The position numbers were made by a program, and so were the translations under genes. DNA of 64,000 bases from Actinomycetes bacterium (GTDB lineage Bacteria; Actinomycetota; Acidimicrobiia; Acidimicrobiales; Bog-793). Each line of letters begins with the position of its first letter. The first letter of the stretch is position 1. A model generated the notes under the pieces. That model made no database searches. It was not told the DNA's origin and saw only the letters and a list, made by a program, of their open reading frames with translations. The stretch covers positions 12,408 through 76,407 of the forward strand of contig JAJZMK010000139.1 of the NCBI GenBank assembly GCA_021798275.1. The letters run 5' to 3'. Shown here piece by piece: positions 4,227-53,946 of this stretch.

Positions 4227-4448
4227 AGTGTCCTCGCCGCCTCTTTGATATTGAAAATTTTGCAAATCAAACAATTTACATTCGGCGCCTATCGGAAGTT
4301 TTCTAAAAAGATACGGTTTGTAATGCACTTTACTGATTTTGATGTGTTAAAATATATACATCACAGTTTTGTTAAATTTTTATCAGCAAATGTTAAGATT
4401 TATGCGTCATGGTATTAAGATAAACGCTTACAGAAACGAATATGAAAA

Positions 4449-5009: not shown

Positions 5010-5027
5010 AGCATCCGAAGCTTTATC

Positions 5028-5438: not shown

Positions 5439-5539
5439 ATTTCCTCCGCATCGCGCTAGACCCTATTACAGACTATATAAACTTGGGGCTCCTGTCCCCA
5501 GTAAGACTTTGTTTTATATAAATACTGTCAAAAGAAACA

Positions 5540-6439
5540 TTATAAGGCGTAACCATAAATAGGCCAGTGGCGCTGTGCTTTCGCAAGGGGTGAACGGTTT
5601 TGTGATGCCAAAAATGTTGAGTAGCTCTCTGCCCAAGATTCATACCACTGCCCCTGCAAAAAATATAAGTTGGCCAATTCGTAATTGTTGATATCAAATT
5701 GATCAGTCATTTTAAATAAAATTTCACACGAAGCCTGAGCGTCCGACAACGATCGGTGAGGCGTCTGATTCGTGACACCGTAGTAGCCGCAAAGCGAGGC
5801 CAGGTTGCGGCGTCCCTGTCTGTCTTTGGCAAAGTATCTGTCCAAAACCAATATGTCGATGACAGGACCTTTCCACCCGGCTTCATACAGGCTGGTATTT
5901 AAAAATTTCTTGCCCAAAAGACTGACTATGCTCAAATCATAGGTAAGATTCATGCCGACCAAAGGTATCCCGTTTCCCGCTAAGTCGAGTAGCTTATCGA
6001 ATACAGCCCGAATTGCCGCAACCAAGTCCTCACCCCGTTCCACAGCCTCTTCTGTGGTGATGCCGTGGATAGCCGTGGCTTCTTTTGGTATGGGCACACC
6101 CGGATTCACAATTTGTTCGCAGGACGATTCCGGCAAACGGTTTTGATACGTGCAAAAAGCGTAGCTTACGGGTAAAGCCGTCTTGATGTCAAGACCCGTT
6201 GTTTCCAAATCAAAAGCAACGACTTCTCCGTATGACCACATTTTATCTACCGATATTTCCTGTTGGCACCCATAAGACAGACACTGCTGTATATGCTTGT
6301 TTCCGTCTTCCAGAACAGCTCTCAAACCCATACTATCGACATCTCCTTCTTTCATCACGGAATCCCGGCTTTTGATTTTGGTATTGACAACCCAAATTCG
6401 CCGGACTTCCAAGCTAAATAACATTGATGTTATTTTCAC
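5540..6439 (-). CDS. DEDDh 3'-5' exonuclease (DNA polymerase III epsilon-like)
   Basis: Exo motifs VVAFDLETTGLD, AIHGITTEEA and HRSLSDAQA (H-x4-D). The true start may be an internal Met. Confidence 0.8.
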   Translation of the reverse strand: MKITSMLFSLEVRRIWVVNTKIKSRDSVMKEGDVDSMGLRAVLEDGNKHIQQCLSYGCQQEISVDKMWSYGEVVAFDLETTGLDIKTALPVSYAFCTYQNRLPESSCEQIVNPGVPIPKEATAIHGITTEEAVERGEDLVAAIRAVFDKLLDLAGNGIPLVGMNLTYDLSIVSLLGKKFLNTSLYEAGWKGPVIDILVLDRYFAKDRQGRRNLASLCGYYGVTNQTPHRSLSDAQASCEILFKMTDQFDINNYELANLYFLQGQWYESWAESYSTFLASQNRSPLAKAQRHWPIYGYAL

Positions 6440-6569
6440 ATACGGCTATAACAGGAAGCAGACAAGAGAATTTTTTACGCTTTGGCGTCGCTCAAAACCT
6501 CCCTGTTGCCTCAAAAAACTACCGGGGCAGATTCGGCATCACCGAAAGATCCCTCTAATTTTTAGTGGC

Positions 6570-6575
6570 TATAAT
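6570..6575 (+). promoter_or_regulatory. candidate -10 box (TATAAT) giving a leaderless transcript of the 6582 gene
   Basis: A perfect TATAAT ends 6 nt before ATG 6582, and no SD lies in between. Leaderless mRNAs are common in Actinomycetota. Confidence 0.3.
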
Positions 6576-6581
6576 GGTATT

Positions 6582-6926
6582 ATGTGGTGGAATAAGAGGG
6601 CCGTCGGTTTACACTGTACGCTTCTTATTGTTTTGCCCATCTTTTCCTTTATGGCGTATTGGCAACTGAGCAGAGCCCTGGGAGGAAACAGCCTGAGTTG
6701 GGTTTATACCTTTGAATGGCCGTTTTTCGGATTCTACGCCATTGTTTTGTGGTGGAAACTTATTCACGAGAACGAAGAAAAGAAAACCGGACTGCGGTTT
6801 TCCAGAAAACACGCCGCGGACAACGACTCGGACAAAGAAAAAGATCTGGAAGAACAGACTGCGGCATACAACAGTTACTTATCTTCTTTGTACCAAAGCG
6901 GGGAACAAAACCGCTTAAAAACATGA
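6582..6926 (+). CDS. small membrane protein (2 TM, acidic/basic C-tail)
   Basis: Internal ATG of the 6297 ORF. MWWNKRAVGLHCTLLIVLPIFSFMAYW and WVYTFEWPFFGFYAIVLWW are hydrophobic helices. The upstream part of the ORF overlaps the exonuclease gene. Confidence 0.5.
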   Translation: MWWNKRAVGLHCTLLIVLPIFSFMAYWQLSRALGGNSLSWVYTFEWPFFGFYAIVLWWKLIHENEEKKTGLRFSRKHAADNDSDKEKDLEEQTAAYNSYLSSLYQSGEQNRLKT

Positions 6927-7223
6927 TGCGGATTTTGACCGGACGGACGAAAACATATCTGCTAGATTGTGCCGATGGGACTAATTATTCGCGTTCTGGT
7001 TAAGATTTTGGTCAAAATAAAAAGACAAAAGAAGGCCAAAAAAACCTCATAAAAAGATCTGTATTTCTCGATACCCAGCCGGCAACGATGTTGCCGGCCA
7101 AAGCGTCGTCACCAGGCAACCGAGCTTGCCCGTATCGACATCTTTTAAACCATTTATTTTTAGAAATTTCCGATAACTTTGTGTTTTTGTTTTTTACGGC
7201 CATAGGGCTATAGAATAAAAGTT

Positions 7224-7943
7224 ATGACAGACGGCGACAATGTTAGCGAACATCAAGAAAACGCATCGGGAACCAAAACAATTTACCGTCAGGTAAAATT
7301 CGTTCCCGATAGAACAGCCGTAACGTTACTCTTAATTCGGCACGGCGAATCGGCAATAGCCGATATGGAAAACCCGTTTCCCCTGACAGAAGGCCGCAGC
7401 GACCCATCTCTGTCACCGATCGGCATTCTGCAAGCCCAGGCTTTGGCTTCCAGATTGGCCGGTTACCGGTTGGACGACATCTACGTGACGCAGCTGAAGC
7501 GTACCCAAGAAACAGCCGCTCCATTGTGCAGCGCCATCGGAAAAACGTGGACCGTAGAAGAAGATTTGGTGGAGATATTTATGGGGGAATGGGAAGGCGG
7601 CATTTACCGCAAGCACATGACGGAAGGGCATCCCGTCGCCCAAAGGATTCTGGCCGAACAGCGTTTTGACGTTATTCCGGGCGGAGAATCAAATCATTCC
7701 GTAACTTCGAGGGCAGTCGCTGCCATTCAAAAAATTACGGTATCGCATCCCGGCAAAACTCTGGCCATATTTACACACAGCGTTGTGATAGCCAATGTGC
7801 TTGCTTTTGTCACCCGCTCGGAACCGTTTGCCTTCCTGGGCAACGACAACGCCTCCGTATCCGAAATTGTGGTTGCCGACGGGAAATGGTATCTGAGAAG
7901 ATTTAACGATACGGCCCACCTGGAGCACATCAAGCACCTATAA
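7224..7943 (+). CDS. histidine phosphatase family protein (phosphoglycerate-mutase-like)
   Basis: LLLIRHGES catalytic RHG motif and a downstream FTHSVVI (His) motif. Confidence 0.85.
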   Translation: MTDGDNVSEHQENASGTKTIYRQVKFVPDRTAVTLLLIRHGESAIADMENPFPLTEGRSDPSLSPIGILQAQALASRLAGYRLDDIYVTQLKRTQETAAPLCSAIGKTWTVEEDLVEIFMGEWEGGIYRKHMTEGHPVAQRILAEQRFDVIPGGESNHSVTSRAVAAIQKITVSHPGKTLAIFTHSVVIANVLAFVTRSEPFAFLGNDNASVSEIVVADGKWYLRRFNDTAHLEHIKHL

Positions 7944-9575
7944 AATGCCGTCCGGCTCAAAAGTCCCCTTTCCTTGTCCGTTTGGCTGTGATTGATCAAA
8001 ATCTGTTTTTTTCTCGGGTATTTCAACCCAAAAGTGCGTACCCACGCCGTCCACAGAGTTCACCCCCGTTTTGCCGCGATGCACTTCCACAATCGAGGCG
8101 ACTATCGCCAAACCCAATCCCGTGCCGCCTCTGTCTCTGTTTCTGGAAGAATCGGCCTTATAAAAACGTTCAAATACTTTTTCCAGGTGCTCCCGGGGAA
8201 TACCAGGCCCTTCGTCTATCACTTCGAAGATACCGCCGGCTCCCGAGTTTTTGACATTAATGTGTATGGCTGCCGAGCTCGGGGTATGGACTATCGCGTT
8301 TCTGACTAAATTGACGGCGACCTGTCTGAGACTTGCTTCGTCCCCGTACACATTAACGGAACCTTCCGATTGAAAAGTAATTTCTCTGTCCGGATCCATA
8401 GCCTGGGCGTCGATGGCCGCGTCTGCCGCTATTTGGTTCAAATCCACCGTTTCGAAGTGATAGACGTGTCCTTGATCCAGTCTGGCCAGCAACAGCAGAT
8501 CTTCCACCAGCTCGGCCATGCGCTTGGCTTCGCTTTCAATCCTGAGCATCGACCTTTCCAGGTCTTCCGGATGTTTATTGGCTCCTCTCCGGAAAAGCTC
8601 GGCATAGCCCCTGATGGAAGTGAGCGGGGTTCTGAGCTCGTGGGAAGCATCCGCCAAAAATTGCCTCAGTCTGTTTTCAGAAGATTGTTGTTCGTTAAAA
8701 GAGTGCTCTATTTGGCTGAGCATAGTATTTAAAGATATGCCGAGACGGCCGAGTTCCGTGTTGGGTTCCGCCACCGTGACCCTCTGCGAAAGGTCTCCTT
8801 TTGCTATGGCATCCGCCGTTTTTTCTATCTTCTCGAGAGGCTTCATCCCTATTCTCACCAATATATAGCTGAGCAGTGCCAAGACCACCAGGACACTTAT
8901 GCCGACAGCCAAATCAAAAAGTTTCAGGTGTCGCAAAGTGTCATAAAAAGGATTGAGCGGAATGGCAATAACTTCCACCCCCGCCACTTCTTGGGTAAAG
9001 CCGTTGATGGCCGGTATGGCCATCACCCTGTAAGCGCTTACGGCACCGTGCCCGCCTTTTGCCGGAGCCGAAAAAACCTGTACGTCGTTGGGGGAATTAA
9101 ACTGCTGGATGACTCTCTTGACCACCGACAAAGGCACAATGGGGCCGGGGCCGTCGGCAACGGGAAAAGCGCTGATCACCGCACCGCTGATATCTATGAC
9201 TTCACCGTAGGTGCCGGTGGGAGCCGCGCTCAAATTGGGGGATTTGAAACCTCCGTCGCCGAAGTAACGCTCCACGGGCAGTTTGGCGGCAGCGAGCTGT
9301 TCGTCAACCTGTCTTGTCAAAAAAGATTCTGTTTGCGAATAAACTATAACGTCGGCCACCGACAAACCGACGGTCGTTATAAGAACCAGTCCGATCAAGA
9401 GGCGGGTCCTTAAAGAAAATTTCCCCGGTCTCAGTTTTGCTCTCAAAAGGCTTTTTGATCCGGTTATCCGCTCACGGGAAAACGGCTCTTCTTCTCGGTT
9501 GTGATCCTGAAATAAAGACGGGACTTGTGTTTCGGCTTCTTCTCGGTTGTCTTTAAACTGGTTTTTTTGCTTCAT
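7938..9575 (-). CDS. sensor histidine kinase (2 TM, HAMP, HisKA, HATPase_c)
   Basis: H-box ASHELRTPLTSIRGY; N box LVRNAIVHT; G boxes IDEGPGIP and GGTGLGLAIV; HAMP-like KPLEKIEKTADAIAKGDLSQRV. Confidence 0.9.
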   Translation of the reverse strand: MKQKNQFKDNREEAETQVPSLFQDHNREEEPFSRERITGSKSLLRAKLRPGKFSLRTRLLIGLVLITTVGLSVADVIVYSQTESFLTRQVDEQLAAAKLPVERYFGDGGFKSPNLSAAPTGTYGEVIDISGAVISAFPVADGPGPIVPLSVVKRVIQQFNSPNDVQVFSAPAKGGHGAVSAYRVMAIPAINGFTQEVAGVEVIAIPLNPFYDTLRHLKLFDLAVGISVLVVLALLSYILVRIGMKPLEKIEKTADAIAKGDLSQRVTVAEPNTELGRLGISLNTMLSQIEHSFNEQQSSENRLRQFLADASHELRTPLTSIRGYAELFRRGANKHPEDLERSMLRIESEAKRMAELVEDLLLLARLDQGHVYHFETVDLNQIAADAAIDAQAMDPDREITFQSEGSVNVYGDEASLRQVAVNLVRNAIVHTPSSAAIHINVKNSGAGGIFEVIDEGPGIPREHLEKVFERFYKADSSRNRDRGGTGLGLAIVASIVEVHRGKTGVNSVDGVGTHFWVEIPEKKTDFDQSQPNGQGKGTFEPDGIL

Positions 9576-10272
9576 AATAGTCTTGTGAACTTGGTGCCCT
9601 GAGGCTGTAACCGGCTCCTCGCAGAGTATGGATCAGAGGGGGGCCATGTGAATCCACTTTTTTGCGGAGATAACTTATATAGGTCTCAACGACGTTTGCA
9701 TCTCCTTCGAAATCATACTCCCACACGTAATCAAGTATCTGCGCTTTGGACAACACCCTCCTGGGGTTCAGCATTAAATATCTGAGCAGCTTAAATTCCG
9801 TGGGAGTCAACTCGATCGGTCTGTCCCCTCTGTAAACTTCTCTTGTCTCTTCGTCAAGTTCCAAATCGTAAAACGTAAGCTTTGCTTTGCTGTTGGAAGA
9901 GTCATTGGTCCTGCGTAAAATTGCCCTTAGGCGCGCCACCAATTCCTCTATGCTGAATGGCTTTGTTACATAGTCGTCTCCGCCCAAGGTGAGCCCTCTG
10001 ACCTTGTCTTCGGTGGTATCGCGGGCCGTCAAAAACAATATGGGTACTTTATAACCTTCCAATCTCAGCCGCCTGGCCACTTCGAAACCGTCCAGATCCG
10101 GCAACATGACATCCAGCAGCATCAGGTGCGGTCTGCTTTTGAGGGCTGCCGTCAAAGCCTCTCTGCCCGTATAAGCCGTTGTCACTTCAAAGCCTTCATA
10201 GTGTAAAGCCGTGGCAACCAAGTCGGCTATATTTCTTTCATCATCAACCACCAAAACACGATTAGTATCCAC
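9553..10272 (-). CDS. OmpR/PhoB-family response regulator
   Basis: Receiver domain VLVVDDE...LLDVMLPDLDG...TARD...K. C-terminal winged helix LTPTEFKLLRYL...TLRGAGY. It overlaps the kinase gene, so the two form an operon. Confidence 0.92.
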   Translation of the reverse strand: MDTNRVLVVDDERNIADLVATALHYEGFEVTTAYTGREALTAALKSRPHLMLLDVMLPDLDGFEVARRLRLEGYKVPILFLTARDTTEDKVRGLTLGGDDYVTKPFSIEELVARLRAILRRTNDSSNSKAKLTFYDLELDEETREVYRGDRPIELTPTEFKLLRYLMLNPRRVLSKAQILDYVWEYDFEGDANVVETYISYLRKKVDSHGPPLIHTLRGAGYSLRAPSSQDYYEAKKPV

Positions 10273-10325
10273 ATTGATAATAATCTAGTATTAAGCTGTG
10301 AGTAAGCTGTGAAAAAACTGACAAA

Positions 10326-10862
10326 GTGTATAGGAACTTTGTCTGCCATGCAAAGACCTGCGGGAATAAATTGCAGAGTTTTTTGGTTATCGCATTCATG
10401 TATACAATAGCAAAAGAGAGTAGCCGGTTTCTTGTTTCGTCTTCCAGAGAAATAGCGGCTCCCAGGCATATAATTTTTGAGATTCTGACGGATCCAACCA
10501 AACACCCTATTTTAGACGGCGAGACGACGGTAAAAAGTTTCATTTCCGGCGAACGGTTGCGACTGGGAACAAAATTCTCCATGTCAATGAAAATGTGGGC
10601 ACCGTACCACATAACCAATACTGTAGTCGAATATGAAGAAAACTCCCTCATCGCTTGGCGTCACTTTTTTGGCCACAGGTGGAGATACCGGCTGGAAGAG
10701 ATAGACGAACAGCATACGCTTGTCATAGAAACTTTTGATTACTCCACCGCCAAATCGCCGTTCGGTATCAAACTTATGGGGTTTCCCGAGAAGAACCTGG
10801 AAAACATCCGACGGACTTTAGAAAGACTGGCTGCACTCGCGGAGAACTCGGTCTCCCAATAA
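10326..10862 (+). CDS. SRPBCC (START/polyketide-cyclase-like) family protein
   Basis: SREIAAPRHIIFEILTDPTKHPILDG resembles the SRPBCC N-terminus. Start uncertain (an internal Met near 10398 is possible). Confidence 0.55.
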   Translation: MYRNFVCHAKTCGNKLQSFLVIAFMYTIAKESSRFLVSSSREIAAPRHIIFEILTDPTKHPILDGETTVKSFISGERLRLGTKFSMSMKMWAPYHITNTVVEYEENSLIAWRHFFGHRWRYRLEEIDEQHTLVIETFDYSTAKSPFGIKLMGFPEKNLENIRRTLERLAALAENSVSQ

Positions 10863-10991
10863 AAGTCTTGGGCGAATCAAATCGGATGCAAAAAATTATT
10901 TGCGCCCAAAACAATTAAAGTTCCTTTTCGGACTCTATACTCATATTGTTGGGTGTAACACCACGCAATTTATGATTGATAAACGGATGCC

Positions 10992-11816
10992 ATGCCCGAA
11001 ACAACGGAGTTTACCCTTAAAAAAAGCAAGCGGGCCAAACATATACGCCTCACCATAAGCAGCACCGGTCAATTGGTAATAGTCGTACCCTACACGTTTA
11101 ATTTGGATTATCTGCCGACAATTTTGGAAAGAAAAAAGTCCTGGATCGAAAAATCCTTGCGTGACTTCCGGCAACAGGACAGAGAGGCTTTATCCGGCCG
11201 GACAATCCCGGAAACCATAGAACTAAAGGCAATCGATACCGTGATCCGGGTAGAAATAGCGGAGACCGCAGATCCTTTTTTGTCATATTTAGAGACCCAA
11301 AACCGCCTTTTCCCGCTAACCGCAAAACCTCAAGACAGCTCCTCTTCGCCTCACGGCCGGCCGGCCACCGGACATAAAATAAAAGTCAAAGAATTGCCGG
11401 ACAATATCTTATTAATTACCGCATCGGATACTGCCTCGGAAGAGATCTTGGCAAAAATCAACTCCTGGCTGGCCGCAAAAGCCAGACACATATTGGTTCC
11501 CTGGCTGCTTGCCTTGGCTGACGAACGAGGTATCGACGTAAAATCTGTTTCCATTCGCTCGCAACAGACACGGTGGGGAAGTTGCAGTACTTCTGGTAGA
11601 ATTAGTCTAAATAAAACTCTGTTATTTTTACCTCCTGTATTGGTAAATCATATTATGTTACATGAATTATGTCATTTAAAAGAAATGAATCACTCAAAAC
11701 GGTTTTGGGATTTGCTGGAGCAGGAAGACAAAAATACGCAGCTGGCAAAATCTCAATTAAAAAAGGGGTGGCAACTCGTACCTTACTGGGCCATAGGCAG
11801 TCCTTATGGCGGGTAG
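10992..11816 (+). CDS. DUF45/YgjP-like zinc metallohydrolase (M48 superfamily)
   Basis: RWGSCSTSGRISLN followed by HELCHLKEMNHSKRFW (HExxH + H), the DUF45 signature. Confidence 0.8.
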   Translation: MPETTEFTLKKSKRAKHIRLTISSTGQLVIVVPYTFNLDYLPTILERKKSWIEKSLRDFRQQDREALSGRTIPETIELKAIDTVIRVEIAETADPFLSYLETQNRLFPLTAKPQDSSSSPHGRPATGHKIKVKELPDNILLITASDTASEEILAKINSWLAAKARHILVPWLLALADERGIDVKSVSIRSQQTRWGSCSTSGRISLNKTLLFLPPVLVNHIMLHELCHLKEMNHSKRFWDLLEQEDKNTQLAKSQLKKGWQLVPYWAIGSPYGG

Positions 11817-47147: not shown

Positions 47148-47435
47148 GCGAAGTAAGCAGAACGGTGGCGGTTCTCGGGAGTCACCCGATGCGAAGTAGC
47201 CTCACGCCGCACCCGTCTAGGTTTGCGAGCTGGAAGTAACACAGACCCCAATTGGTCAGCAAGGGGTATAGCCGCTCACGGCAGTGCTCGGTGTTGAGGA
47301 TCGCGGTCCTGTAGGTGAGCTCAACGACATCGACCTCAAGGAGTATCGCAAGACCCACGCCACGGGCTCCTGTGAGACGGCTAGGGTTGAAGTGGTGCGC
47401 TGTGGACAATTAAGGTACTGCTTCAAAGAAAATAA

Positions 47436-48446
47436 TCAATCGTTCCAGTCGTACGGGTTGTCATTCGCTTTTTGCAGTGTCTCGACATAACTCGATCTGT
47501 AATAGTCATGTCTGTTGTCCGTGGGATAGGAAAGTGTTCCTCGGATGTCGTCCAAATTGGTACAACCCCTGCTTTGCAACCAAGCCGACAAATCTTGTAG
47601 AAGTTGTGAAACGTATCCAAGACCGTTTCGTAAAATGGTTGATGTGGTCATAACGGCATTGGCACCGACAAGCAGGTATTTGATAATTTCATCCGCAGTT
47701 TCTACCCCGGTGGTGGCCGCTATATGAGTTTTAACCCGATTTCTTACCAAAGCTATGACAGCCAGCGGAAGTCTTATTTCGCGTTTGTCAGATAAATTGA
47801 CAGTGGGCAAGACCTCTAGGATATTTAGATCAATGTCCGGATAAAGGTATCTGTTGAATAAAACCAGAGCATCCGCTCCAAGGGAGTCAAACTCTTTTAT
47901 GACATTGGATAACGAAGTGTACATGGGAGACAATTTGACGGCGAGGGGTATGTTCACCTCTTCTTTGACCGATCTGAAGATATCAAAGTGCAATTGTTCG
48001 ATGTCTGTTCCCTGCATCTCATTTTCACTTATGGGTTGATATAAATTCAGTTCGATTCCGGCGGCTCCGGCATCCTCCATTTTCTTGGCATAAGACACCC
48101 AGCTGCCCAAACTGGATCCGTTGAGACTTGCGATAATCGGTATGCCGACCCCAGAACTCGCCGCTTCGATGGTTCGTAAATAAGGGAGGGGGTCAGGAAG
48201 TTCCAAAGATGCCTGCGGAAAATACGAAAGAGATTCAAGGAAACTGTCCTCATAATTTTCAAGTATAGAGGCTCTTTGGTGTGCTTCAGTGTTGATCTGC
48301 TCTTCAAATAAGGAGTGAAGTACAATGGCTCCCACCCCCGATTCTTCCAAAGCTTTAATTTGATTCAAAGATTGAGACAGCGGTGACGGAGAAGCGATAA
48401 TGGGGTTTTTTAATTTAAGTCCCATATAATTTGTCGTCAGATTCAC
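47436..48446 (-). CDS. dihydroorotate dehydrogenase-like (PreA/DPD C-domain-like) flavoprotein
   Basis: TNYMGLKLKNPIIASPSPLS, a TIM-barrel class-1 DHOD/DPD-like pattern, GADALVLFNR. It has no Fe-S Cys clusters. Confidence 0.75.
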   Translation of the reverse strand: MNLTTNYMGLKLKNPIIASPSPLSQSLNQIKALEESGVGAIVLHSLFEEQINTEAHQRASILENYEDSFLESLSYFPQASLELPDPLPYLRTIEAASSGVGIPIIASLNGSSLGSWVSYAKKMEDAGAAGIELNLYQPISENEMQGTDIEQLHFDIFRSVKEEVNIPLAVKLSPMYTSLSNVIKEFDSLGADALVLFNRYLYPDIDLNILEVLPTVNLSDKREIRLPLAVIALVRNRVKTHIAATTGVETADEIIKYLLVGANAVMTTSTILRNGLGYVSQLLQDLSAWLQSRGCTNLDDIRGTLSYPTDNRHDYYRSSYVETLQKANDNPYDWND

Positions 48447-48463
48447 TGGACTTTTCTGCTTTC

Positions 48464-51400
48464 TTATCTCGTGTTTGGGTAGGCTTTAGCCGGTTTGGCG
48501 GCCATTTCTTCGTATTGTCGCCACTTTCTGTCGACAGCCTCTTCCGCAAGTTTTAAGAGTATTTCGGATTCCTCGGGGTTGCTGCGGCTGAGGGCGTTGT
48601 AACGAATTTCTTCCAAAGCGTATTTTTTGAACGAAATTCTTTTTCTTGGGGAGTCTAAAAGAAAAGGCTTCTCTCCTTTGGACTGCAATACGGGATCGTA
48701 TCTAAAAAGAGGCCAGTATCCGCTGGCTGTGGCCCGATATTGTTGTTCAAGACCGCACCTCATATCAATCCCGTGCGCTATACAATGGCTGTAAGCGATA
48801 ATTAAAGAAGGTCCCGGGTAGGCTTCTGCTTCTCTGAAGGCAAGCAAAGTTTGTTTTTTATCAGCGCCCATGGCAACTTTTGACACATATACGTTGCCGT
48901 AAGATATGGCTTGCAATGCCAAATCTTTTTTCTCCAGTTTTTTGCCTGATGCCGCAAATTTGGCTATGGACCCGAGAGGCGTGGACTTACTCATCTGCCC
49001 GCCGGTATTGGAGTAAACTTCTGTGTCCAAAACAAGGATGTTGACATTTCTGCCGGAGGCAAGCACGTGGTCCAAGCCTCCGGCCCCTATGTCGTAAGCC
49101 CAGCCGTCGCCGCCCACTATCCAAACGCTTTTGCGCAATAAGGCATCTGCCACACTTTCCAGATCTCTGGCGCCGACAGAGTCGATTGCCGTCAATTTTT
49201 CTCTCAGGAGGTCTATTCTCTGACGTTGCAATTCCAATTCCGATTCTGTTGCCTGGGGTGAGGATGTAATTTCAGCTACGAAACCGCTGCCTAAAAGTTC
49301 AGACAAATCCTGCAGGTGCCGCAGAGCTATGTTGTACTGGTGGTCTACGGCAAGTCTGATGCCCAAACCGAATTCGGCATTATCCTCAAACAGTGAATTT
49401 GACCAAGCCGGTCCCCGCCCGAATTCGTTGGTGGTCCACGGAGTGGTGGGCAGGTTGCCACCATAGATGGATGAGCATCCTGTGGCATTGGCAATTATTG
49501 CCCGGTCGCCAAAGAGTTGGGACAGAAGTTTCAAGTAAGGAGTCTCTCCGCACCCGCTGCAGGCGCCGGAGAACTCAAACAGCGGTTTTAGGTATTGGGT
49601 TCCGCGGACCGTCGAGAAATCTATTCTTTCTCTTCGCGGATAAGCTAAAGTTTCAAAAAAAGCCACATTTTCCTTTTCCTGCGCAAGGAGCGGCTCTTTG
49701 TCAACCAAATTGATTGCCTTGCTGTTTGTGGCGGATGTGACGGGGCAGGCTTCCACACAAAGTCCGCACCCGGTGCAGTCTTCGGAATAGACTTGCAGGG
49801 TGTACATCATGTCCGGCAAACCGCGCTCGATGAGCGGTGCTGATTTAAATTTAGCGGGCGCTCCGGCAATGTCTCGACTGTCGTAATACTTGCTTCTTAT
49901 CACGCTGTGAGGACAAACAAAACTGCAATTGCCGCATTGTATGCAAATGTCGGGATCCCATTCGGCAACTATATCAGATATGTTTCTCTTCTCAAGGCAA
50001 GCTGTTCCGGTCGGCCAAGTTCCGTCCGCCGGGAGCAAACTGACTGGGAGATCCTCCCCCTCACCTTTCATTAACTTCAGAGTTACCCTATCGATAAAAG
50101 TATCCTCGCTTGCGACATAAGGGTCTGAATCGGAATCACGATAATCTTCATCTGAGGGTATCTCTACTTTTTCCAAATTCTCCAAAGCGGCTTCAATGGC
50201 AGCCAGGTTGGCATCCACAACCTTTTGTCCCCGCTTGCTGTAACTTTTGACGATATATTCCGCAATTTTTTTCTTGGCCGTATCGGTACCGATGATGTTG
50301 GATATGGCGAAAAAGCTTGTTTGCAGAATTATATTAATTCTTGATCCGAGCCCAAGTTCCCTTGCTATTTTTGTGGCATTGATGACATACAAGGAAATAT
50401 TTTTCTCTCTCAGTCTTTTTTTAATGCCGGCATCCAAATGAGCACACACTTCTTTTGCCGTATATGGCGAGTTGAGAAGTAAGGTTGAGGATTTATCGGC
50501 ACGATCCAAAATTTCCTTGTTGCCCACCAAGTTGAATTGATGGCATCCGATAAAAGAAGCGTGTTCAATCAGATAGGGGGCTTTTATGGGAGATTTTCCG
50601 AATCGCAGATGCGATGCAGTTTGTGAGCCAGATTTTTTGGAGTCGTAAACAAAATATCCCTGTGCGTAATATCCCAGGGAGCCCAATATCTTAATGGTAT
50701 TTTTATTGGCGCCTACGGTTCCGTCCGATCCCAAACCATAAAAAACAGCTTCTATGGTATCTGGCGATCTGGTTTCAAAATCTTTACTGTAGCGTATGCT
50801 GGAAAACGTAACATCATCATTGATCCCGACGGTAAATCTGCGTTTTGGTGAATCCGAGTCCAGCGTGTCAAAGACGGCTTTCACCATTCCCGGAGTAAAC
50901 TCTTTGGAAGACAGTCCGTAACGCCCGCCGATGACAGACGGTCGGGCATTACTGCTGACAAAGGACTCCGCTATCAGTGCTTCAATGTCTAAAAACAAAG
51001 GTTCTCCGAGCGAACCAGGTTCTTTCGTCCTGTCCAAAACGGCTATTTTTTCAACCGTAGGCGGCAAAGCTTCTATGATTTGCGCCGCCGGGAAAGGCCT
51101 GTAGAGCCTGATTGCCAAAAGACCGACTTTCTCTCCGAAGTTATTTAAGTACTGAACCGTTGTCGCCGTGGTTTCGATGGAAGAACCCATGGCGACAATG
51201 ACTTTTGTCGCCGCAGGATCCCCGAAGTAGTCAACCAGATGGTATGACCTGTTTGTCAGTCCGGCAAAGTCGTCCATTGCCTCTTGGACAATACCCGGGG
51301 TTTTCTCATAGTAAATGTTTACGGCTTCGCGCGTTTGAAAGAATACGTCGGGGTTTTGGGAAGTGCCCCTGATAATTGGGTGTTCGGGAGACAAAGCACG

Positions 51401-52006
51401 CTTTCTGTTCTGATGTATCAAATCGATAGGCACCAATTGTCTGAGAACTTCATCTTCGATGTACTCTATGGTGTTGAGTTCGTGAGAGGTTCTGAATCCG
51501 TCAAAAAAATGGAGAAAAGGAATTTTTGATTTCAGGGTTGCCAATTGGGAGACTGCCGCAAGGTCATGAGCTTCTTGTACTGATGCGGATGCCAACATGG
51601 CTATTCCGGTCTGGCGTAGTGCCATCACATCGGAATGATCTCCAAAAATCGACAGAGTCGAAGTCGCCAGGGAACGGGCCGCCACATGGATGACGGTTGA
51701 GGACAATTCTCCGGTTATTTTATAAATATCCGGAATCATTAACAATAAGCCTTGTGAAGCAGTAAAAGTTGTTCCGAGTGCGCCTCCCTGGAGTATGCCG
51801 TGCAAGGCCCCGGCAGCGCCTCCTTCGCTTTGCATTTCTATGACCTGGGGTATAGAGCCGTAGATATTCCTCTTTTTTTGGGTAGACCACTCATCCGTCA
51901 GTTCGGCCATGGGGGAAGATGGGGTAATTGGGTAAATGGCACAAAGTTCGTTTAGCCTATATGCCACCGAAGCCGCCGCTTCGTTTCCGTCTACTGTTAT
52001 TTGCAT
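48464..52006 (-). CDS. nifJ: pyruvate:ferredoxin (flavodoxin) oxidoreductase, homodimeric type
   Basis: 1180 aa. N-terminus DGNEAAASVAYRLNELCAIYPITPSS. Ferredoxin domain CIQCGNCSFVCPH and CTGCGLCVEACP. TPP motif GGDGWAYDIG. Confidence 0.95.
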   Translation of the reverse strand: MQITVDGNEAAASVAYRLNELCAIYPITPSSPMAELTDEWSTQKKRNIYGSIPQVIEMQSEGGAAGALHGILQGGALGTTFTASQGLLLMIPDIYKITGELSSTVIHVAARSLATSTLSIFGDHSDVMALRQTGIAMLASASVQEAHDLAAVSQLATLKSKIPFLHFFDGFRTSHELNTIEYIEDEVLRQLVPIDLIHQNRKRALSPEHPIIRGTSQNPDVFFQTREAVNIYYEKTPGIVQEAMDDFAGLTNRSYHLVDYFGDPAATKVIVAMGSSIETTATTVQYLNNFGEKVGLLAIRLYRPFPAAQIIEALPPTVEKIAVLDRTKEPGSLGEPLFLDIEALIAESFVSSNARPSVIGGRYGLSSKEFTPGMVKAVFDTLDSDSPKRRFTVGINDDVTFSSIRYSKDFETRSPDTIEAVFYGLGSDGTVGANKNTIKILGSLGYYAQGYFVYDSKKSGSQTASHLRFGKSPIKAPYLIEHASFIGCHQFNLVGNKEILDRADKSSTLLLNSPYTAKEVCAHLDAGIKKRLREKNISLYVINATKIARELGLGSRINIILQTSFFAISNIIGTDTAKKKIAEYIVKSYSKRGQKVVDANLAAIEAALENLEKVEIPSDEDYRDSDSDPYVASEDTFIDRVTLKLMKGEGEDLPVSLLPADGTWPTGTACLEKRNISDIVAEWDPDICIQCGNCSFVCPHSVIRSKYYDSRDIAGAPAKFKSAPLIERGLPDMMYTLQVYSEDCTGCGLCVEACPVTSATNSKAINLVDKEPLLAQEKENVAFFETLAYPRRERIDFSTVRGTQYLKPLFEFSGACSGCGETPYLKLLSQLFGDRAIIANATGCSSIYGGNLPTTPWTTNEFGRGPAWSNSLFEDNAEFGLGIRLAVDHQYNIALRHLQDLSELLGSGFVAEITSSPQATESELELQRQRIDLLREKLTAIDSVGARDLESVADALLRKSVWIVGGDGWAYDIGAGGLDHVLASGRNVNILVLDTEVYSNTGGQMSKSTPLGSIAKFAASGKKLEKKDLALQAISYGNVYVSKVAMGADKKQTLLAFREAEAYPGPSLIIAYSHCIAHGIDMRCGLEQQYRATASGYWPLFRYDPVLQSKGEKPFLLDSPRKRISFKKYALEEIRYNALSRSNPEESEILLKLAEEAVDRKWRQYEEMAAKPAKAYPNTR

Positions 52007-52009
52007 AAC

Positions 52010-53647
52010 CTAACCTTTCACATCCTCTACCATTTCAATGGCGTGCACCGGGCACTGTTCAAAACATGCTCTGCAACCTGTACACAAGTTGTAATCAAAT
52101 TTGTAACGGTTACCTTTGCCGAGTTTTATAACTGCATGTTCGGGGCACGCGGCAAAGCAGCCGTCGCATTCAAAGCAATTGCCACACGATAAACAGCGTG
52201 CGGCTTCAAAGTGAGCCTCTTCCTCGGATAGAGTGGCGACCACCTCATCAAAATTTTTAACTCTATCCTGCGGGGATTTATGCTGAGGTTTTTCAGCAAG
52301 GAGGTCTTTGAAATACCAAAGATTCAAGTCTGATATATGAACAACATCATGTTTCCCGAGAAGTGTAAATTCATTTCCTGATAACCAGGTATCGATATTT
52401 TTTGCGGCTTTTTTGCCGTGCCCTATGGCAATTGTGACGGTTTTTTCCGCCGGCACCATATCGCCGCCGGCAAAAATACCCGGATGGCCAGTCATCATTT
52501 GGTTATTTACGACAACGGTACCGTCGTTTTTAAACTCTATGCCTTGCACCGAAGCCAAAAAGTCTGTTTCACTGTTTTGGCCCAACGCAAGGATGACGCT
52601 GTCGGCGGAAACGGTCTCTTTTTTTCCGGTCGGTTTGGGTACGCCGTTTTCATCCAATTCCATGAGTTCCAACTCCATGCCTTTTTCCCCGAAGGCGGTA
52701 ATGGTTCGCAACCAATGGATTTGGACTCCCTCAAGAAGTGCCTCGTCGGCTTCTTCTTCGTGAGCCGGCATCTGCTCTCTGGTTCTTCTGTAGACGATTA
52801 CGGTTTCTTCCGCACCAAGCCGTTTTGCCGTACGGGCGGCGTCCATGGCCGTATTGCCGCCGCCGTAAACCGCAACCTTGCGTCCTATGAGCGGCCTTTC
52901 TCCTTCTGCGACGTTGTGCAAGAATTGGATGGCATCCACTATTTTTGAGGCGTCACGGGTGGGTATATTGACGCGTTTTGCCAGATGGGCACCCACGGCC
53001 ACGAAAACGGCATCGAAACCGCCGCTTTCTTTTTCTTCCAAAACATCGTTGACTTTATGACTGAGTTTGAAACTCACGCCCAGCTCTTCCAGCCGGTTGA
53101 TTTCAGCGTCGAGGACTTCCCTTGGCAGACGGTATGAAGGGATTCCGTACCTCATCATCCCCCCCGCTTGTTTGCCCGCGTCTCTGACTTCGACTTGGTG
53201 GCCGAGAAGTGTTAAGTGATAAGCGGCGGATAAACCGGAGGGACCGGCACCTATCACCAAAACCTTTTTGCCGGAGTTCTTCTTTGGCTTGACGAAAGAA
53301 AGTTTTTCCTTCAGGGCAAAATCGCCCACAAATCTTTCTACATTATGGACTCCTATCGACGTGTCCAAATCCTTACGGTTGCAGGCATCCTCGCACGGGT
53401 GATAGCACACCCTTCCGTGGACAGCAGGGAAAGGATTGTCTTTGGTGATTATTTCCCAAGCTTTTTGATAATTGTGCTGCTCTGTTTCATAGAGCCAAGC
53501 TTGGATATTTTCACCGGCGGGACACGCTTGGTTGCAGGGCGGCAATAGATCCAGGTAAACAGGCTTAAAAGCCCTTACGGGCCCGCTTCTGTAGGTAGGT
53601 TCGGATAGGTTGGGTACGGTTGTGATATCAAATGGCATGTCTGGCAC
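52010..53647 (-). CDS. GltD/PreT-like NAD(P)H-dependent oxidoreductase with C-terminal 2x[4Fe-4S] ferredoxin domain
   Basis: N-terminal CNQACPAGE...CYHPCEDAC cluster motifs. Dinucleotide folds VIGAGPSGLSAAY and VYGGGNTAMD. C-terminal CLSCGNCFECDGCFAACP and CTGCRACFEQCP. Confidence 0.85.
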   Translation of the reverse strand: MPDMPFDITTVPNLSEPTYRSGPVRAFKPVYLDLLPPCNQACPAGENIQAWLYETEQHNYQKAWEIITKDNPFPAVHGRVCYHPCEDACNRKDLDTSIGVHNVERFVGDFALKEKLSFVKPKKNSGKKVLVIGAGPSGLSAAYHLTLLGHQVEVRDAGKQAGGMMRYGIPSYRLPREVLDAEINRLEELGVSFKLSHKVNDVLEEKESGGFDAVFVAVGAHLAKRVNIPTRDASKIVDAIQFLHNVAEGERPLIGRKVAVYGGGNTAMDAARTAKRLGAEETVIVYRRTREQMPAHEEEADEALLEGVQIHWLRTITAFGEKGMELELMELDENGVPKPTGKKETVSADSVILALGQNSETDFLASVQGIEFKNDGTVVVNNQMMTGHPGIFAGGDMVPAEKTVTIAIGHGKKAAKNIDTWLSGNEFTLLGKHDVVHISDLNLWYFKDLLAEKPQHKSPQDRVKNFDEVVATLSEEEAHFEAARCLSCGNCFECDGCFAACPEHAVIKLGKGNRYKFDYNLCTGCRACFEQCPVHAIEMVEDVKG

Positions 53648-53946
53648 ATATTCAATTCTGTCAGTACTGAATATTGATCAATAGGGTCTAAAGGCATAAA
53701 GACCCGGTGCGCCGTACCCGAAGGGGTTATGAGTCGGAATTTCTGTAAACCGAGTGACTTATTAGGAGGTCTTGTACGAGCTCAAAGGCCATATTTGTTT
53801 TGGGTGCTTAAAAGTTTTACTTTTTGCGGCAAAATATCTGAAATTCCTACAAAGGCTATTTGTTTAACCGATAGGCAATCCTCTCCCTTCCCTTTAATCC
53901 GGCGATTTTTTGTCTGTCCAAAGTATTGCATTTATGATGGTTAGAA

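What the first reader, a model, noticed from the sequence alone, without database searches (positions are those of the whole stretch)
47436..53647. PFOR sandwiched between the two halves of a dihydropyrimidine-dehydrogenase-like (PreT/PreA-like) pair with a relocated ferredoxin domain
Three tightly packed co-oriented genes have gaps of 3 and 17 nt. The first encodes a GltD/PreT-like NAD(P)H flavoprotein carrying an extra C-terminal 2x[4Fe-4S] domain. The second is a 1180-aa homodimeric-type pyruvate:ferredoxin oxidoreductase. The third is a DHOD/PreA-like FMN TIM-barrel protein lacking the Fe-S domain that PreA normally carries. Together these parts resemble a split DPD-type electron wire attached to PFOR. 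That could couple pyruvate oxidation directly to NAD(P)+, analogous to eukaryotic PNO, or to reduction of an unknown enoate or pyrimidine-like substrate. I do not know of a biochemical description of this three-gene module.
Basis: partly seen in the sequence, partly recalled or inferred. Interest (0 to 1): 0.55.

Follow-up and report, generated by a model that had tools for sequence, protein, structure and literature searches.

The report
PFOR operon with two flavoprotein partners
An uncultured, probably actinobacterial, bacterium encodes the pyruvate-oxidising enzyme PFOR between two flavoprotein genes that accompany PFOR in many bacteria: one probably passes its electrons to NADP+, the other is a dihydroorotate-dehydrogenase look-alike of untested function. 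The cluster has been noticed before but never tested biochemically.

Summary
Three co-oriented minus-strand genes, with gaps of 3 and 17 nt, encode:
- a 545-aa PRK12771 iron-sulfur flavoprotein (here called GltDL);
- a 1180-aa single-chain PFOR;
- a 336-aa PRK07565 "DHOD-like" barrel (here called DHODL).

A second, diverged copy of the module lies on another contig of the same MAG.

The linkage is far beyond chance:
- In 73 of 73 metagenomic loci with room, PFOR directly follows the closest GltDL relatives. DHODL follows PFOR in 39 of 48.
- The PFOR–DHODL pair alone is wider. It is adjacent in 28 of 36 DHODL-bearing genomes of the phylum sample and in several other phyla.

New details:
- GltDL is a circularly permuted NfnB/StnC-type NADP(H) module with a PorD-like, not PreA-like, ferredoxin domain.
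- Relatives of GltDL end a porGAB operon that has no porD, and are fused to an OFOR subunit.
- DHODL keeps FMN-site residues but lacks the DHOD/DPD catalytic residues.
- DHOD-like–GltDL fusion proteins exist.
- In this phylum the pair tracks lineages that have cytochrome oxidase.

Best reading: a non-covalent pyruvate:NADP+ oxidoreductase system with an FMN accessory subunit.

The cluster was already noted in Propionibacterium (McCubbin 2020). This scan has also reported it on other genomes. No biochemical study turned up.

The parts
52010..53647 (-). GltDL: a 545-aa NAD(P)-binding Fe-S flavoprotein of NCBIfam PRK12771. It is a circularly permuted NfnB/GltD/StnC-type module (FAD, NAD(P)H site, two [4Fe-4S]) plus a C-terminal 2x[4Fe-4S] ferredoxin domain.
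   Evidence: NF009410 767.6 bits against a cut-off of 516; 38 % identity to NfnA of NfnABC (9BOV_A); all 15 Cys and the Y286-R287-R288 motif are invariant in 59 relatives; model pLDDT 79; best fold matches are StnC 8OH5_C, NfnA 9BOV_A and 9N5U_A.
52013..52285 (-). Residues 455-545 of GltDL. This is the permuted 'N-terminal-type' segment (NF-x-EV ... RC-x2-C, Cys485/488), followed directly by the PorD-like dicluster domain (Cys491/494/497/501 and Cys522/525/528/532).
   Evidence: residues 455-489 align to residues 9-43 of NfnB 4YLF_B and 13-61 of NfnI-L 5JCA_L; residues 478-545 alone score PorD_KorD 49.4, PorD_Arch 47.2 and PreA 25.2 bits. Cys positions.
48464..52006 (-). A single-chain (homodimer-type) pyruvate:ferredoxin oxidoreductase of 1180 aa. 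Its start lies 3 nt after the GltDL stop.
   Evidence: TIGR02176 1650 bits over model positions 2-1166, with all PFOR Pfam domains. Cys688/691/694/698, 744/747/750/754 and 816/819/844/1075 suffice for three [4Fe-4S]; it falls in the clade of GltDL-linked PFORs (55 rows, SH-like support 100).
47436..48446 (-). DHODL: a 336-aa dihydroorotate-dehydrogenase-like TIM-barrel protein (NCBIfam PRK07565). It is probably FMN-binding, has no Fe-S domain and lacks the DHOD/DPD catalytic residues. Its start lies 17 nt after the PFOR stop.
   Evidence: NF005741 396 bits against a cut-off of 303; PyrD 92 and PreA 89 bits, both far below their cut-offs. Asn134, Lys171, Asn198 and Gly247 are invariant, while the catalytic-Cys position (137) is Gln here and variable in the family; model pLDDT 89.4; best fold matches are the FMN domain of pig DPD, DHODB and DHODA. 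The GTG start at 48446 is preferred over the ATG at codon 8 because Leu3 and Tyr7 are conserved in the family.
53648..53946 (.). A 299-nt divergent spacer between GltDL and a COX15/CtaA-like gene (53947-54897, + strand). It is the presumed promoter region of the operon.
   Evidence: Inference from gene layout only. The consensus scan gave only weak hits, not above its shuffled expectation.

Best explanation
The three genes form one operon for a PFOR that carries its own electron outlets.

Shown by sequence:
- PFOR is canonical: a TPP site and three [4Fe-4S].
- GltDL is an NfnB/StnC-type module with FAD, an NAD(P)H site carrying the Tyr-Arg-Arg motif also present in the aligned NfnB, NfnI-L and NfnA/StnC sequences, and two [4Fe-4S]. 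It is fused to an OFOR delta-subunit-like 2x[4Fe-4S] domain.
- DHODL is a DHOD-fold barrel. It keeps the FMN-site residues and has lost the DHOD/DPD acid/base and half of the substrate-binding residues.

Inferred mechanism:
1. PFOR oxidises pyruvate + CoA to acetyl-CoA + CO2.
2. The PorD-like domain of GltDL docks at the distal cluster of PFOR and takes the electrons.
3. The electrons pass through four clusters to FAD, which reduces NADP+.
The net activity is pyruvate:NADP+ oxidoreductase without free ferredoxin. This would work like Euglena PNO or Azoarcus evansii KGOR, with different parts.

DHODL is the older and more widespread partner of this PFOR clade. Most likely it is a bound FMN electron-transfer subunit: either a second outlet or a hub between the PFOR and GltDL cluster chains. 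It may be tied to PFOR operation in oxygen-respiring cells. Its acceptor is unknown.

The module is inherited, and probably transferred, as a unit. It is duplicated in this MAG.
For: Linkage:
- PFOR directly follows GltDL in 73 of 73 related metagenomic loci with room. DHODL follows PFOR in 39 of 48.
- In a 201-genome sample of the phylum, DHODL is adjacent to PFOR in 28 of 36 DHODL-bearing genomes.
- PFOR lies directly upstream of DHODL in 12 of 18 loci from other phyla.
- GltDL-linked PFORs form one clade (55 rows, support 100). Their DHODLs cluster the same way: 2 label changes against 22 when shuffled.

GltDL as an OFOR-to-NAD(P)+ port:
- Its C-terminal domain is PorD-like.
- In genome G037 the orthologue (54 % identity) is the last gene of a tightly packed porG-porA-porB operon that has no porD.
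- In G092 a relative precedes korA/korB-like genes.
- P0208 is a single chain with OFOR catalytic domains plus a PRK12771-like module. It has 15 member sequences on 3 contigs and 39 % identity over 94 % of GltDL.
- The closest solved relatives are the NADP(H)-binding subunits of NfnABC and StnABC.
- All 15 Cys and the Tyr-Arg-Arg motif are invariant.

DHODL as a bound flavoprotein:
- FMN-site residues are invariant, while the catalytic position is variable.
- PFOR-DHODL single-ORF fusions exist.
- DHOD-like + PRK12771-like fusions exist.

Expression in other organisms:
- Co-transcription and co-regulation of the same trio in Propionibacterium (PMC7650540).
- nifJ, sll0743 and sll0744 form one transcription unit in Synechocystis (PMC11368403).

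Aerobic link: 26 of 28 PFOR genomes with adjacent DHODL have COX1, against 3 of 28 PFOR genomes without it.
Against: - No protein of the module has been purified or assayed. Cofactors, NADP+ versus NAD+ preference, complex formation and direction of electron flow are all inferred.
- Single-chain PFOR already contains its own PorD-type domain. How a second such domain would dock is unknown.
- More distant PRK12771 members (36-40 % identity) in anaerobic relatives are mostly not next to OFOR genes. The family therefore has other partners too.
- The PFOR-DHODL fusions are singletons from MAGs and could be assembly or read-through errors. The GltDL-PFOR 'fusions' (P0182 and others) carry truncated PFOR and are probably errors.
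- The DHOD-like + GltDL fusion family keeps the catalytic Cys, so it may do DPD-type chemistry that DHODL cannot.
- Nine of 48 GltDL-PFOR loci lack DHODL, so DHODL is not essential for GltDL function.
- The COX1 association rests on related genomes and is not phylogenetically independent. Outside this phylum, DHODL also occurs in anaerobes: Bacteroides in the control set, and Anaerolineaceae and Synergistales.
Confidence: 0.6

Rival explanations
1. Electron-bifurcating or confurcating complex, as postulated for Propionibacterium. The NfnB-like FAD of GltDL would combine low-potential electrons from PFOR/ferredoxin with high-potential electrons entering through DHODL (for example from a quinol) to reduce NAD(P)+, or run the reverse.
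For: McCubbin et al. 2020 proposed this for the same gene trio (PMC7650540). GltDL is homologous to NfnB, whose FAD bifurcates. Three redox proteins in one operon leave room for a third electron path.
Against: DHODL is of the soluble class-1 type. PyrD-1B scores 92 bits and PreA 89 bits, but quinone-dependent DHOD only 27 bits. Its N-terminus aligns from residue 2-3 of class-1 DHODA and of the PRK07565 model, leaving no N-terminal extension of the kind class-2, quinone-dependent DHODs are known to carry (the class-2 feature is from my own knowledge). The closest solved relatives of GltDL are the GltD-like NADP(H) modules of NfnABC and StnABC; to my knowledge the bifurcating flavin in those complexes sits in another subunit. 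GltDL also partners with OFORs where no DHODL is present.
Confidence: 0.12
2. A DPD-like NADPH-dependent reductase. GltDL + DHODL would form a PreT/PreA-like enzyme that reduces an unknown small substrate at the FMN of DHODL, with PFOR as an alternative low-potential electron donor or just a co-regulated neighbour.
For: The cofactor complement equals that of DPD. Single-chain DHOD-like + PRK12771-like proteins exist in several multi-member clusters without PFOR nearby. The best fold match of the DHODL model is the DPD FMN domain. DHODL has family-specific invariant polar residues (Glu49, Asn109, Arg199, Arg317; Glu48 nearly invariant) that could bind a substrate.
Against: The catalytic Cys position is Gln here and Tyr/Phe/Ser/Met/Leu elsewhere. 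The Lys43 equivalent is variable, and the N-x2-G-x2-N substrate loop is absent and modelled with low confidence. DHODL is linked to PFOR in most lineages that have no GltDL at all. GltDL is always linked to PFOR in this subfamily, also where DHODL is missing.
Confidence: 0.12
3. No physical complex. The three would be independent soluble enzymes kept in one operon only for co-regulation. PFOR would use free ferredoxin or flavodoxin, GltDL would act as a general ferredoxin:NADP+ reductase, and DHODL would do an unrelated job.
For: PFORs are promiscuous towards small redox proteins (review PMC13768988). No experimental interaction data exist. Nine of 48 loci lack DHODL, and the phylum sample holds genomes with DHODL but no detected PFOR (5 of 36).
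Against: GltDL-PFOR adjacency is 73/73 with very short or overlapping spacers. The PFOR and DHODL trees are congruent. The porD-less porGAB-GltDL operon and the OFOR-GltDL fusion require direct contact in relatives.
Confidence: 0.1

Closest known systems
PFOR (nifJ) cluster of Propionibacterium, flanked by a 'glutamate synthase small chain-like' gene and a 'dihydroorotate dehydrogenase' gene (McCubbin et al. 2020, Genes 11:1115, PMC7650540)
   Same: The same three-gene architecture as described there: a GltD/NfnB-like protein with two 4Fe-4S, FAD and NADP sites plus an extra ferredoxin-type site, then PFOR, then a DHOD-like protein. The genes are co-transcribed and co-regulated, and the host is also an actinobacterium. 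The function was postulated, not tested.
   Different: I could not fetch the Propionibacterium sequences by name, so orthology is inferred from the description. That paper proposed quinol-linked bifurcation, which the class-1, non-membrane character of DHODL does not favour.
Synechocystis sp. PCC 6803 nifJ operon (sll0741 nifJ, sll0743, sll0744 'DHOD (fumarate)'; transcription unit TU3296)
   Same: PFOR is co-transcribed with a DHOD-annotated gene (PMC11368403). The cyanobacterial control genome Synechococcus elongatus has both PRK07565 and PFOR above their cut-offs.
   Different: That transcription unit lists no GltDL gene, and an extra hypothetical gene lies between. I did not verify that sll0744 belongs to PRK07565.
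NADP(H)-binding GltD-like modules of the electron-bifurcating NfnABC (9BOV chain A, 9N5U chain A) and StnABC (8OH5 chain C) complexes; NfnB/NfnI-L; GltD
   Same: The best sequence and fold matches of GltDL: 38 % identity to 9BOV_A, TM-score by query 0.71-0.73. They share the permuted placement of the RC-x2-C segment after the FAD domain (9BOV_A, 9N5U_A, 8OH5_C) and the Tyr-Arg-Arg-Thr motif after the second Rossmann loop.
   Different: Those modules are fused to formate-dehydrogenase-like or other domains and work with HydB/C-like subunits. GltDL is free-standing, ends in a PorD-like domain and sits beside PFOR. It is below the NfnB/GltA equivalog cut-off (314 against 472 bits), and no NfnA/PyrK-like gene is adjacent.
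Dihydropyrimidine dehydrogenase (pig DPD; E. coli PreT/PreA)
   Same: The same cofactor inventory when GltDL and DHODL are taken together. The DHODL model matches the DPD FMN domain best, and GltDL matches the DPD N-terminal half.
   Different: The catalytic Cys and the pyrimidine-binding residues are absent in DHODL. The ferredoxin domain sits on the other protein and is PorD-like. PreA scores 89 bits against a cut-off of 335.
2-oxoacid:NAD(P)+ oxidoreductases built from an OFOR plus a flavoprotein: Azoarcus evansii KGOR (Ebenau-Jehle et al. 2003) and Euglena/Cryptosporidium PNO
   Same: The proposed net reaction type is the same: a 2-oxoacid oxidised with NAD(P)+ as acceptor, without free ferredoxin. 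A published phylogeny (PMC10134865) groups KGOR-alpha with GltD/NfnB homologues.
   Different: From my own knowledge, PNO is a covalent fusion of PFOR to a cytochrome-P450-reductase-type FMN/FAD domain, a different flavoprotein family. KGOR uses a two-subunit KorAB core. I could not read the KGOR paper, and neither system is known to me to include a DHOD-like subunit.

Membership tests
Pyruvate:ferredoxin (flavodoxin) oxidoreductase, single-chain type (TIGR02176) | Full-length match above the curated cut-off, with all PFOR domains in order | tested here: met
   1650 bits against a cut-off of 911, model positions 2-1166. Pfam POR_N, PFOR_II, POR, EKR, Fer4 dicluster and TPP_enzyme_C are all present.
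Pyruvate:ferredoxin (flavodoxin) oxidoreductase, single-chain type (TIGR02176) | Twelve Cys ligands for three [4Fe-4S] clusters | tested here: met
   Two C-x2-C-x2-C-x3-C motifs (688-698 and 744-754) plus Cys816/819/844/1075. Assigning the last four to the TPP-proximal cluster rests on my memory of the Desulfovibrio africanus enzyme.
Pyruvate:ferredoxin (flavodoxin) oxidoreductase, single-chain type (TIGR02176) | Pyruvate/CoA-dependent reduction of ferredoxin or viologen | not testable with these tools
   Needs an enzyme assay.
NCBIfam NF009410 / PRK12771 'NAD(P)-binding protein' | Full-length match above the curated cut-off; Fer4_20 + FAD/NAD(P) Rossmann pair + C-terminal dicluster | tested here: met
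   767.6 bits against a cut-off of 516, model positions 23-564. GAGPSG at residue 133 and GGGNTAMD at residue 262. Fifteen invariant Cys.
NfnB (large subunit of NfnAB) / NADPH-dependent GltA-GltD | Match above the equivalog cut-off, canonical N-terminal RC-x2-C start, and an adjacent NfnA/PyrK-like or GltB partner gene | tested here: not met
   TIGR01316 314 bits against a cut-off of 472. The RC-x2-C segment is permuted to residues 455-489. The neighbours are PFOR and a CtaA-like gene.
Dihydropyrimidine dehydrogenase PreT/PreA | PreA: FMN barrel with a catalytic Cys and pyrimidine-binding Asn residues, plus its own C-terminal 2x[4Fe-4S] domain | tested here: not met
   NF006183 89 bits against a cut-off of 335. 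The Cys equivalent is Gln137 and varies in the family. There is one Cys in the whole protein and no Fe-S domain.
Dihydroorotate dehydrogenase (class 1A/1B PyrD, class 2) | Catalytic base (Cys in class 1, Ser in class 2) and the four orotate-binding Asn; class 2 also has an N-terminal quinone/membrane domain | tested here: not met
   The DHODA Cys130 equivalent is Gln137, the Asn132 equivalent is Ile139 and the Asn67 equivalent is Ser74. Only the Asn127 and Asn193 equivalents (Asn134, Asn198) are kept. PyrD models score 90-92 bits against cut-offs of about 270, and class-2 models 27 bits or less. DHODA residue numbers come from my own knowledge, checked by counting in the alignment.
NCBIfam NF005741 / PRK07565 'dihydroorotate dehydrogenase-like protein' | Full-length match above the curated cut-off | tested here: met
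   396 bits against a cut-off of 303, model positions 3-330. The second copy on C33 scores 400 bits.
NCBIfam NF005741 / PRK07565 'dihydroorotate dehydrogenase-like protein' | Flavin (FMN) binding | tested here: inconclusive
   Residues that line the FMN site in DHODs are invariant in 57 family members (Asn134, Lys171, Asn198, Gly247, Gly261), and the fold is DHOD/DPD-like. No cofactor was modelled or measured.
Pyruvate:NADP+ oxidoreductase (PNO, Euglena type) | PFOR covalently fused to an NADPH-cytochrome P450 reductase-type FMN/FAD domain | tested here: not met
   PFOR ends at residue 1180 with no extra domain. The partner flavoprotein is of the GltD/NfnB type and is a separate polypeptide. 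The resemblance is in the proposed function only.

The most novel reading that the evidence does not exclude
The three proteins assemble into one ternary complex that is a third, non-covalent kind of pyruvate:NADP+ oxidoreductase. In it a DHOD-type FMN barrel, stripped of its catalytic residues, serves as a redox hub or safety valve between the PFOR and GltDL iron-sulfur chains. This accessory would be what lets a nominally anaerobic enzyme work in oxygen-respiring bacteria, and it may explain the aerobic PFOR activity seen in cyanobacteria.
Probability: 0.3. Interest if true: 0.75.

Novelty: new member of a known kind. Interest (0 to 1): 0.5.

Why it matters
PFOR is a central enzyme of carbon and redox metabolism. 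A comprehensive review from November 2026 lists only small soluble carriers (ferredoxin, flavodoxin, rubredoxin) as its partners and calls PFOR in aerobes enigmatic (PMC13768988).

Two dedicated partner proteins accompany a large PFOR clade across many phyla. The DHOD-like one alone forms about 660 sequence clusters at 50 % identity. In the phylum sampled here it tracks lineages that have cytochrome oxidase.

If GltDL makes PFOR an NADP+-linked enzyme, metabolic models of many aerobic and facultative bacteria assign the wrong cofactor to pyruvate oxidation. That group includes cheese propionibacteria and abundant uncultured soil and water Actinomycetota. A ferredoxin-free pyruvate-to-NADPH module would also be useful for engineering. 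Finding out what DHODL does could explain how PFOR tolerates oxygenated cells.

Tried and rejected
- Literature: nine full-text searches (PFOR with DHOD-like, GltD, NfnB-like, sll0744, nifJ, cryo-EM/FMN/NADP, PRK07565/cd04739/PRK12771, KGOR). They returned only the Propionibacterium genome paper, the Synechocystis operon table and the 2026 PFOR review, which does not mention these partners. The KGOR paper (PMC225024) is not held.
- GltDL-PFOR fusions: the top 'longer' hits (P0182, P0184, P0187, P0189, P0190, P0255) are singletons with truncated PFOR parts. I treat them as read-through or assembly artefacts.
- Quinone-linked (class 2) nature of DHODL: rejected on model scores and because the protein aligns from residue 2-3 with no N-terminal extension.
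- 'Relocated PreA ferredoxin domain': rejected in favour of a PorD-like origin.
- A PFOR docking signature: I compared DHODL-linked PFORs with partner-less PFORs. This gave only a 3-residue insertion after the second cluster motif (residues 759-761) and five discriminating columns, too little to interpret.
- A replacement gene in the nine GltDL-PFOR loci without DHODL: nothing consistent appeared downstream.
- More distant PRK12771 members in anaerobic relatives: 13 of 14 loci had no OFOR gene within 7 kb, so the OFOR link holds for sub-clades and not for the whole NCBIfam family.
- The AU test for monophyly of the triple-module DHODLs did not finish in the time limit.
- Model coordinates are not exposed, so I could not measure cluster or flavin distances.

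Full report
**Observation**

On the minus strand of the window lie three ORFs:
- 53647..52010: 545 aa, GTG start, TAG stop.
- 52006..48464: 1180 aa, ATG start.
- 48446..47436: 336 aa, GTG start.

The spacers are exactly 3 nt and 17 nt. A consensus scan finds no promoter-like or terminator-like sites above its shuffled expectation inside the block.
- Protein 1 (here GltDL) has Fer4_20, Pyr_redox_2 and a C-terminal dicluster domain. It belongs to NF009410/PRK12771 (767.6 bits, cut-off 516).
- Protein 2 is a complete single-chain PFOR (TIGR02176, 1650 bits, cut-off 911).
- Protein 3 (here DHODL) has only DHO_dh and belongs to NF005741/PRK07565, 'dihydroorotate dehydrogenase-like protein' (396 bits, cut-off 303). 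It has one Cys in total and therefore no Fe-S domain.

**Genome context**

- The window is part of contig C76 of a 2.09-Mb MAG with 156 contigs, 85.7 % complete.
- Neighbours are a divergent COX15/CtaA-like gene, ClpS-DUF2017, gyrB-gyrA and a Lipoprotein_15 protein. That is an inference; no name is available.
- The MAG has a COX1 gene and E1_dh-type 2-oxoacid dehydrogenase genes, but no homodimeric-type aceE. PFOR is therefore probably not its only route from pyruvate.
- A second copy of the whole module lies at the start of contig C33, which cuts its GltDL gene. It has the same order and 77, 77 and 65 % amino-acid identity.
- The two PFORs and the two DHODLs are each other's sisters in trees.
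- C33 is somewhat lower in G+C than the genome (41.3 against 45.9 %). The second copy could therefore come from a related population binned into the MAG.

**Conservation**

Starting from DHODL:
- A scan of one genome per species gave 18 loci at 34-43 % identity in many phyla. Twelve have PFOR directly upstream. These include Balneolaceae, Rhodothermaceae, Hyphomicrobiales, Acidimicrobiia, Bacteroidota, Anaerolineaceae and Acidobacteriota. Only one, a Proteobacteria MAG, has the full trio.
- In a 201-genome sample of the MAG's own phylum, 36 genomes have PRK07565 and 57 have PFOR. By coordinates the two genes are adjacent in 28 genomes, and probably in one more across a contig break.
- The full trio occurs only in the MAG itself and in G125 and G165, which belong to other families.

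Starting from GltDL:
The best 80 loci have 57-64 % identity.
- PFOR directly follows GltDL in all 73 loci with at least 400 nt of downstream sequence.
- DHODL directly follows PFOR in 39 of 48 loci with room.

In trees:
- In a PFOR tree of 89 sequences, all GltDL-linked PFORs form one clade (55 rows, SH-like support 100).
- The pair-only PFORs of the MAG's own class and order fall in the sister clade. This was a FastTree run, and the GltDL-linked rows were sampled through GltDL.
- The DHODL tree shows the same clustering: 2 label changes against 22 when shuffled.
- The trio is therefore inherited, and probably transferred, as a unit. The PFOR-DHODL pair is the older and wider association.

**GltDL anatomy**

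- Its best solved relatives are the GltD-like NADP(H) modules of NfnA in the NfnABC complexes (9BOV_A at 38 % identity, 9N5U_A) and of StnC in StnABC (8OH5_C). Next come NfnI-L, NfnB, GltD and DPD.
- The HMMER alignments show a circular permutation. Residues 455-489 (NF-x-EV ... RC-x2-C) align with the extreme N-terminus of NfnB and NfnI-L, while the polypeptide itself begins at the third Cys of that cluster motif.
- This accounts for all 15 Cys: five N-terminal, two in the permuted segment and eight in the dicluster domain. They match four [4Fe-4S] clusters with one non-Cys ligand, as I recall for NfnB and DPD.
- All 15 Cys and the Tyr286-Arg287-Arg288 motif are invariant in 59 relatives. The aligned NfnB, NfnI-L, NfnA and StnC sequences show the same motif.
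- The C-terminal domain scored alone matches OFOR delta subunits best (PorD_KorD 49 bits, PorD_Arch 47, PFOR delta 39.5), well above PreA at 25 bits. It is a PorD-like module, not a relocated PreA domain.

**GltDL relatives recur with OFORs**

- In genome G037 the 54 %-identical orthologue is the last gene of a tightly packed porG-porA-porB operon. There is no room for porD and none is present. There its ferredoxin domain presumably is the delta subunit.
- In G092 a 36 % relative precedes korA- and korB-like genes.
- P0208 is a single chain with POR_N, TPP_enzyme_C, Fer4_20, Pyr_redox_2 and a dicluster domain. It has 1124 aa, 15 member sequences on three contigs from different samples, and 39 % identity over 94 % of GltDL. 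A separate POR-gamma gene follows it. This is a Rosetta-stone fusion of this flavoprotein type with an OFOR catalytic subunit.
- More distant PRK12771 members in anaerobic relatives are not next to OFOR genes. The link holds for sub-clades, not for the whole family.

**DHODL anatomy**

- Alignment to Lactococcus DHODB and DHODA and a 57-member family alignment show that the residues lining the FMN site in DHODs are invariant: Asn134, Lys171, Asn198, Gly247 and Gly261.
- The catalytic Cys position is Gln here and Tyr, Phe, Ser, Met or Leu elsewhere. The Lys43 equivalent is variable.
- The N-x2-G-x2-N substrate loop is absent, and that stretch is modelled with low confidence.
- Family-specific invariant residues appear instead: Ser45, Phe47, Glu49, Asn109, Trp116, Arg199 and Arg317, with Glu48 and Tyr320 nearly invariant.
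- The AlphaFold model (pLDDT 89.4) matches the FMN domain of pig DPD and class-1 DHODs with TM-scores of 0.65-0.69.
- Class-2, quinone-dependent DHOD models score only 27 bits or less.
- The family has about 660 clusters at 50 % identity with E ≤ 1e-30, almost all free-standing proteins of 325-340 aa.
- PFOR-DHODL single ORFs exist, for example P0009 (1566 aa) in an NCBI MAG, but all are singletons.
- Several multi-member clusters of about 860 aa (P0022-P0028) fuse a DHOD-like barrel to a PRK12771-like module that includes the C-terminal dicluster. The barrel's best family is PRK07565 (268-276 bits, against PreA at 191-199). No PFOR is nearby in the one locus inspected.
- These fusions keep the catalytic Cys.

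**An ecological correlate**

- Of the 28 PFOR genomes with adjacent DHODL in the phylum sample, 26 have COX1. The two without it belong to one family with the reversed order, DHODL then PFOR.
- Of the 28 PFOR genomes without adjacent DHODL, only three have COX1, and two of those PFOR genes sit at contig ends.
- The genomes are related, so this is a correlation and not a test. DHODL also occurs in anaerobes of other phyla.
- The COX1 tally of 125/201 includes eight genomes flagged as unpublished (G001, G018, G048, G082, G088, G120, G148, G174). None of them carries a PFOR hit, so the cross-tabulation does not rest on them.

**Literature**

- McCubbin et al. 2020 (PMC7650540) described the same trio in Propionibacterium. 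They reported that it is co-transcribed and co-regulated, and that knocking out this PFOR cripples growth. They postulated a bifurcating complex with quinol oxidation by the DHOD-like subunit and called for tests.
- The November 2026 review of PFOR diversity does not mention either partner and calls PFOR in aerobes enigmatic (PMC13768988).
- I found no biochemical or structural study.
- Earlier agents of this scan reported the same module on other genomes, with the same general verdict.

**Interpretation**

- Most likely (about 0.6), the operon encodes a PFOR with a dedicated NADP+-reducing partner. Electrons would leave the distal PFOR cluster through the PorD-like domain of GltDL, cross four clusters to FAD and reduce NADP+. 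The net activity would resemble PNO or KGOR but use different parts.
- DHODL would be a bound FMN subunit with an unknown acceptor, possibly linked to PFOR function in oxygen-respiring cells.
- Shown here: gene linkage, family membership, motif conservation and the fusions.
- Inferred: cofactor content, complex formation, nucleotide preference and the direction of electron flow.
- Rivals: a bifurcating complex, a DPD-like reductase of an unknown substrate, and mere co-regulation without a complex.
- Overall, this is a new member of a gene cluster that has been noticed before but never characterised.

Noticed in passing
Outside the window: contig C33 of the same MAG (L013 = C33:1-5444; GltDL C-terminus 3-407, PFOR 423-3986, DHODL 4000-5010): A second, diverged copy of the whole three-gene module (77/77/65 % amino-acid identity), cut by the contig start. 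The contig's G+C is 41.3 % against 45.9 % for the genome, so this is either a true paralogue or a contig from a related population binned into the MAG.
   Followed up: partly
L041 (G037:C2:455000-470000), genes at 11476..6770 on the minus strand: A porG-porA-porB operon with no porD gene ends in a PRK12771 orthologue (54 % identity to GltDL). That protein's C-terminal dicluster domain probably replaces the delta subunit, which would make this a candidate four-gene 2-oxoacid:NAD(P)+ oxidoreductase.
   Followed up: partly
L167-L169, gene at 5001-8375 (protein P0208), followed by a POR-gamma gene at 8372-8893: A natural fusion of OFOR catalytic domains (POR_N, TPP_enzyme_C) with a PRK12771-like FAD/Fe-S module. 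It has 1124 aa and 15 member sequences. It lies downstream of, and on the opposite strand to, a run of branched-chain amino-acid biosynthesis genes (acetolactate synthase, KARI).
   Followed up: partly
L166, gene at 6001-8607 (P0026); also P0022-P0028: A family of proteins of about 860 aa fuses a PRK07565-like barrel that still has the catalytic Cys (motif S-C-P-H) to a PRK12771-like module. The cofactor set is DPD-like but the domain order is new. Function unknown; no PFOR nearby.
   Followed up: partly
L042 (G051:C261) and L043 (G094:C349): In two genomes of one family, PFOR is flanked on both sides by DHOD-like genes: one upstream (37-39 % identity to DHODL) and one downstream (about 41 %).
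   Followed up: no
L039 (G125:C12), PFOR at 7640..4096 on the minus strand: In this full-trio locus the PFOR match is split into two overlapping pieces in different frames near residue 470. This could be a frameshift, a sequencing error or a pseudogene.
   Followed up: no
window 48425-48446: A public gene call starts DHODL at the ATG of codon 8: P0032 has 329 aa and begins at query residue 8. Leu3 and Tyr7 are conserved across the family, which favours the GTG start at 48446.
   Followed up: yes
window 49726-49734 (PFOR residues 759-761): DHODL-linked PFORs carry a 3-residue insertion right after the second ferredoxin-type cluster motif. Nine partner-less PFORs lack it. This might mark a docking surface, but it is too small to interpret.
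   Followed up: no
Phylum sample of 201 genomes: Within this phylum, PFOR with an adjacent DHOD-like gene is found almost only in genomes with a COX1 gene (26 of 28). PFOR without it is found mostly in genomes lacking COX1 (25 of 28).
   Followed up: partly
window 46262-47410: Just downstream of the operon lies a convergent methyltransferase ORF (46386-47147). The 2-kb window 46001-48000 has the highest G+C of the whole window (53.3 %).
   Followed up: no
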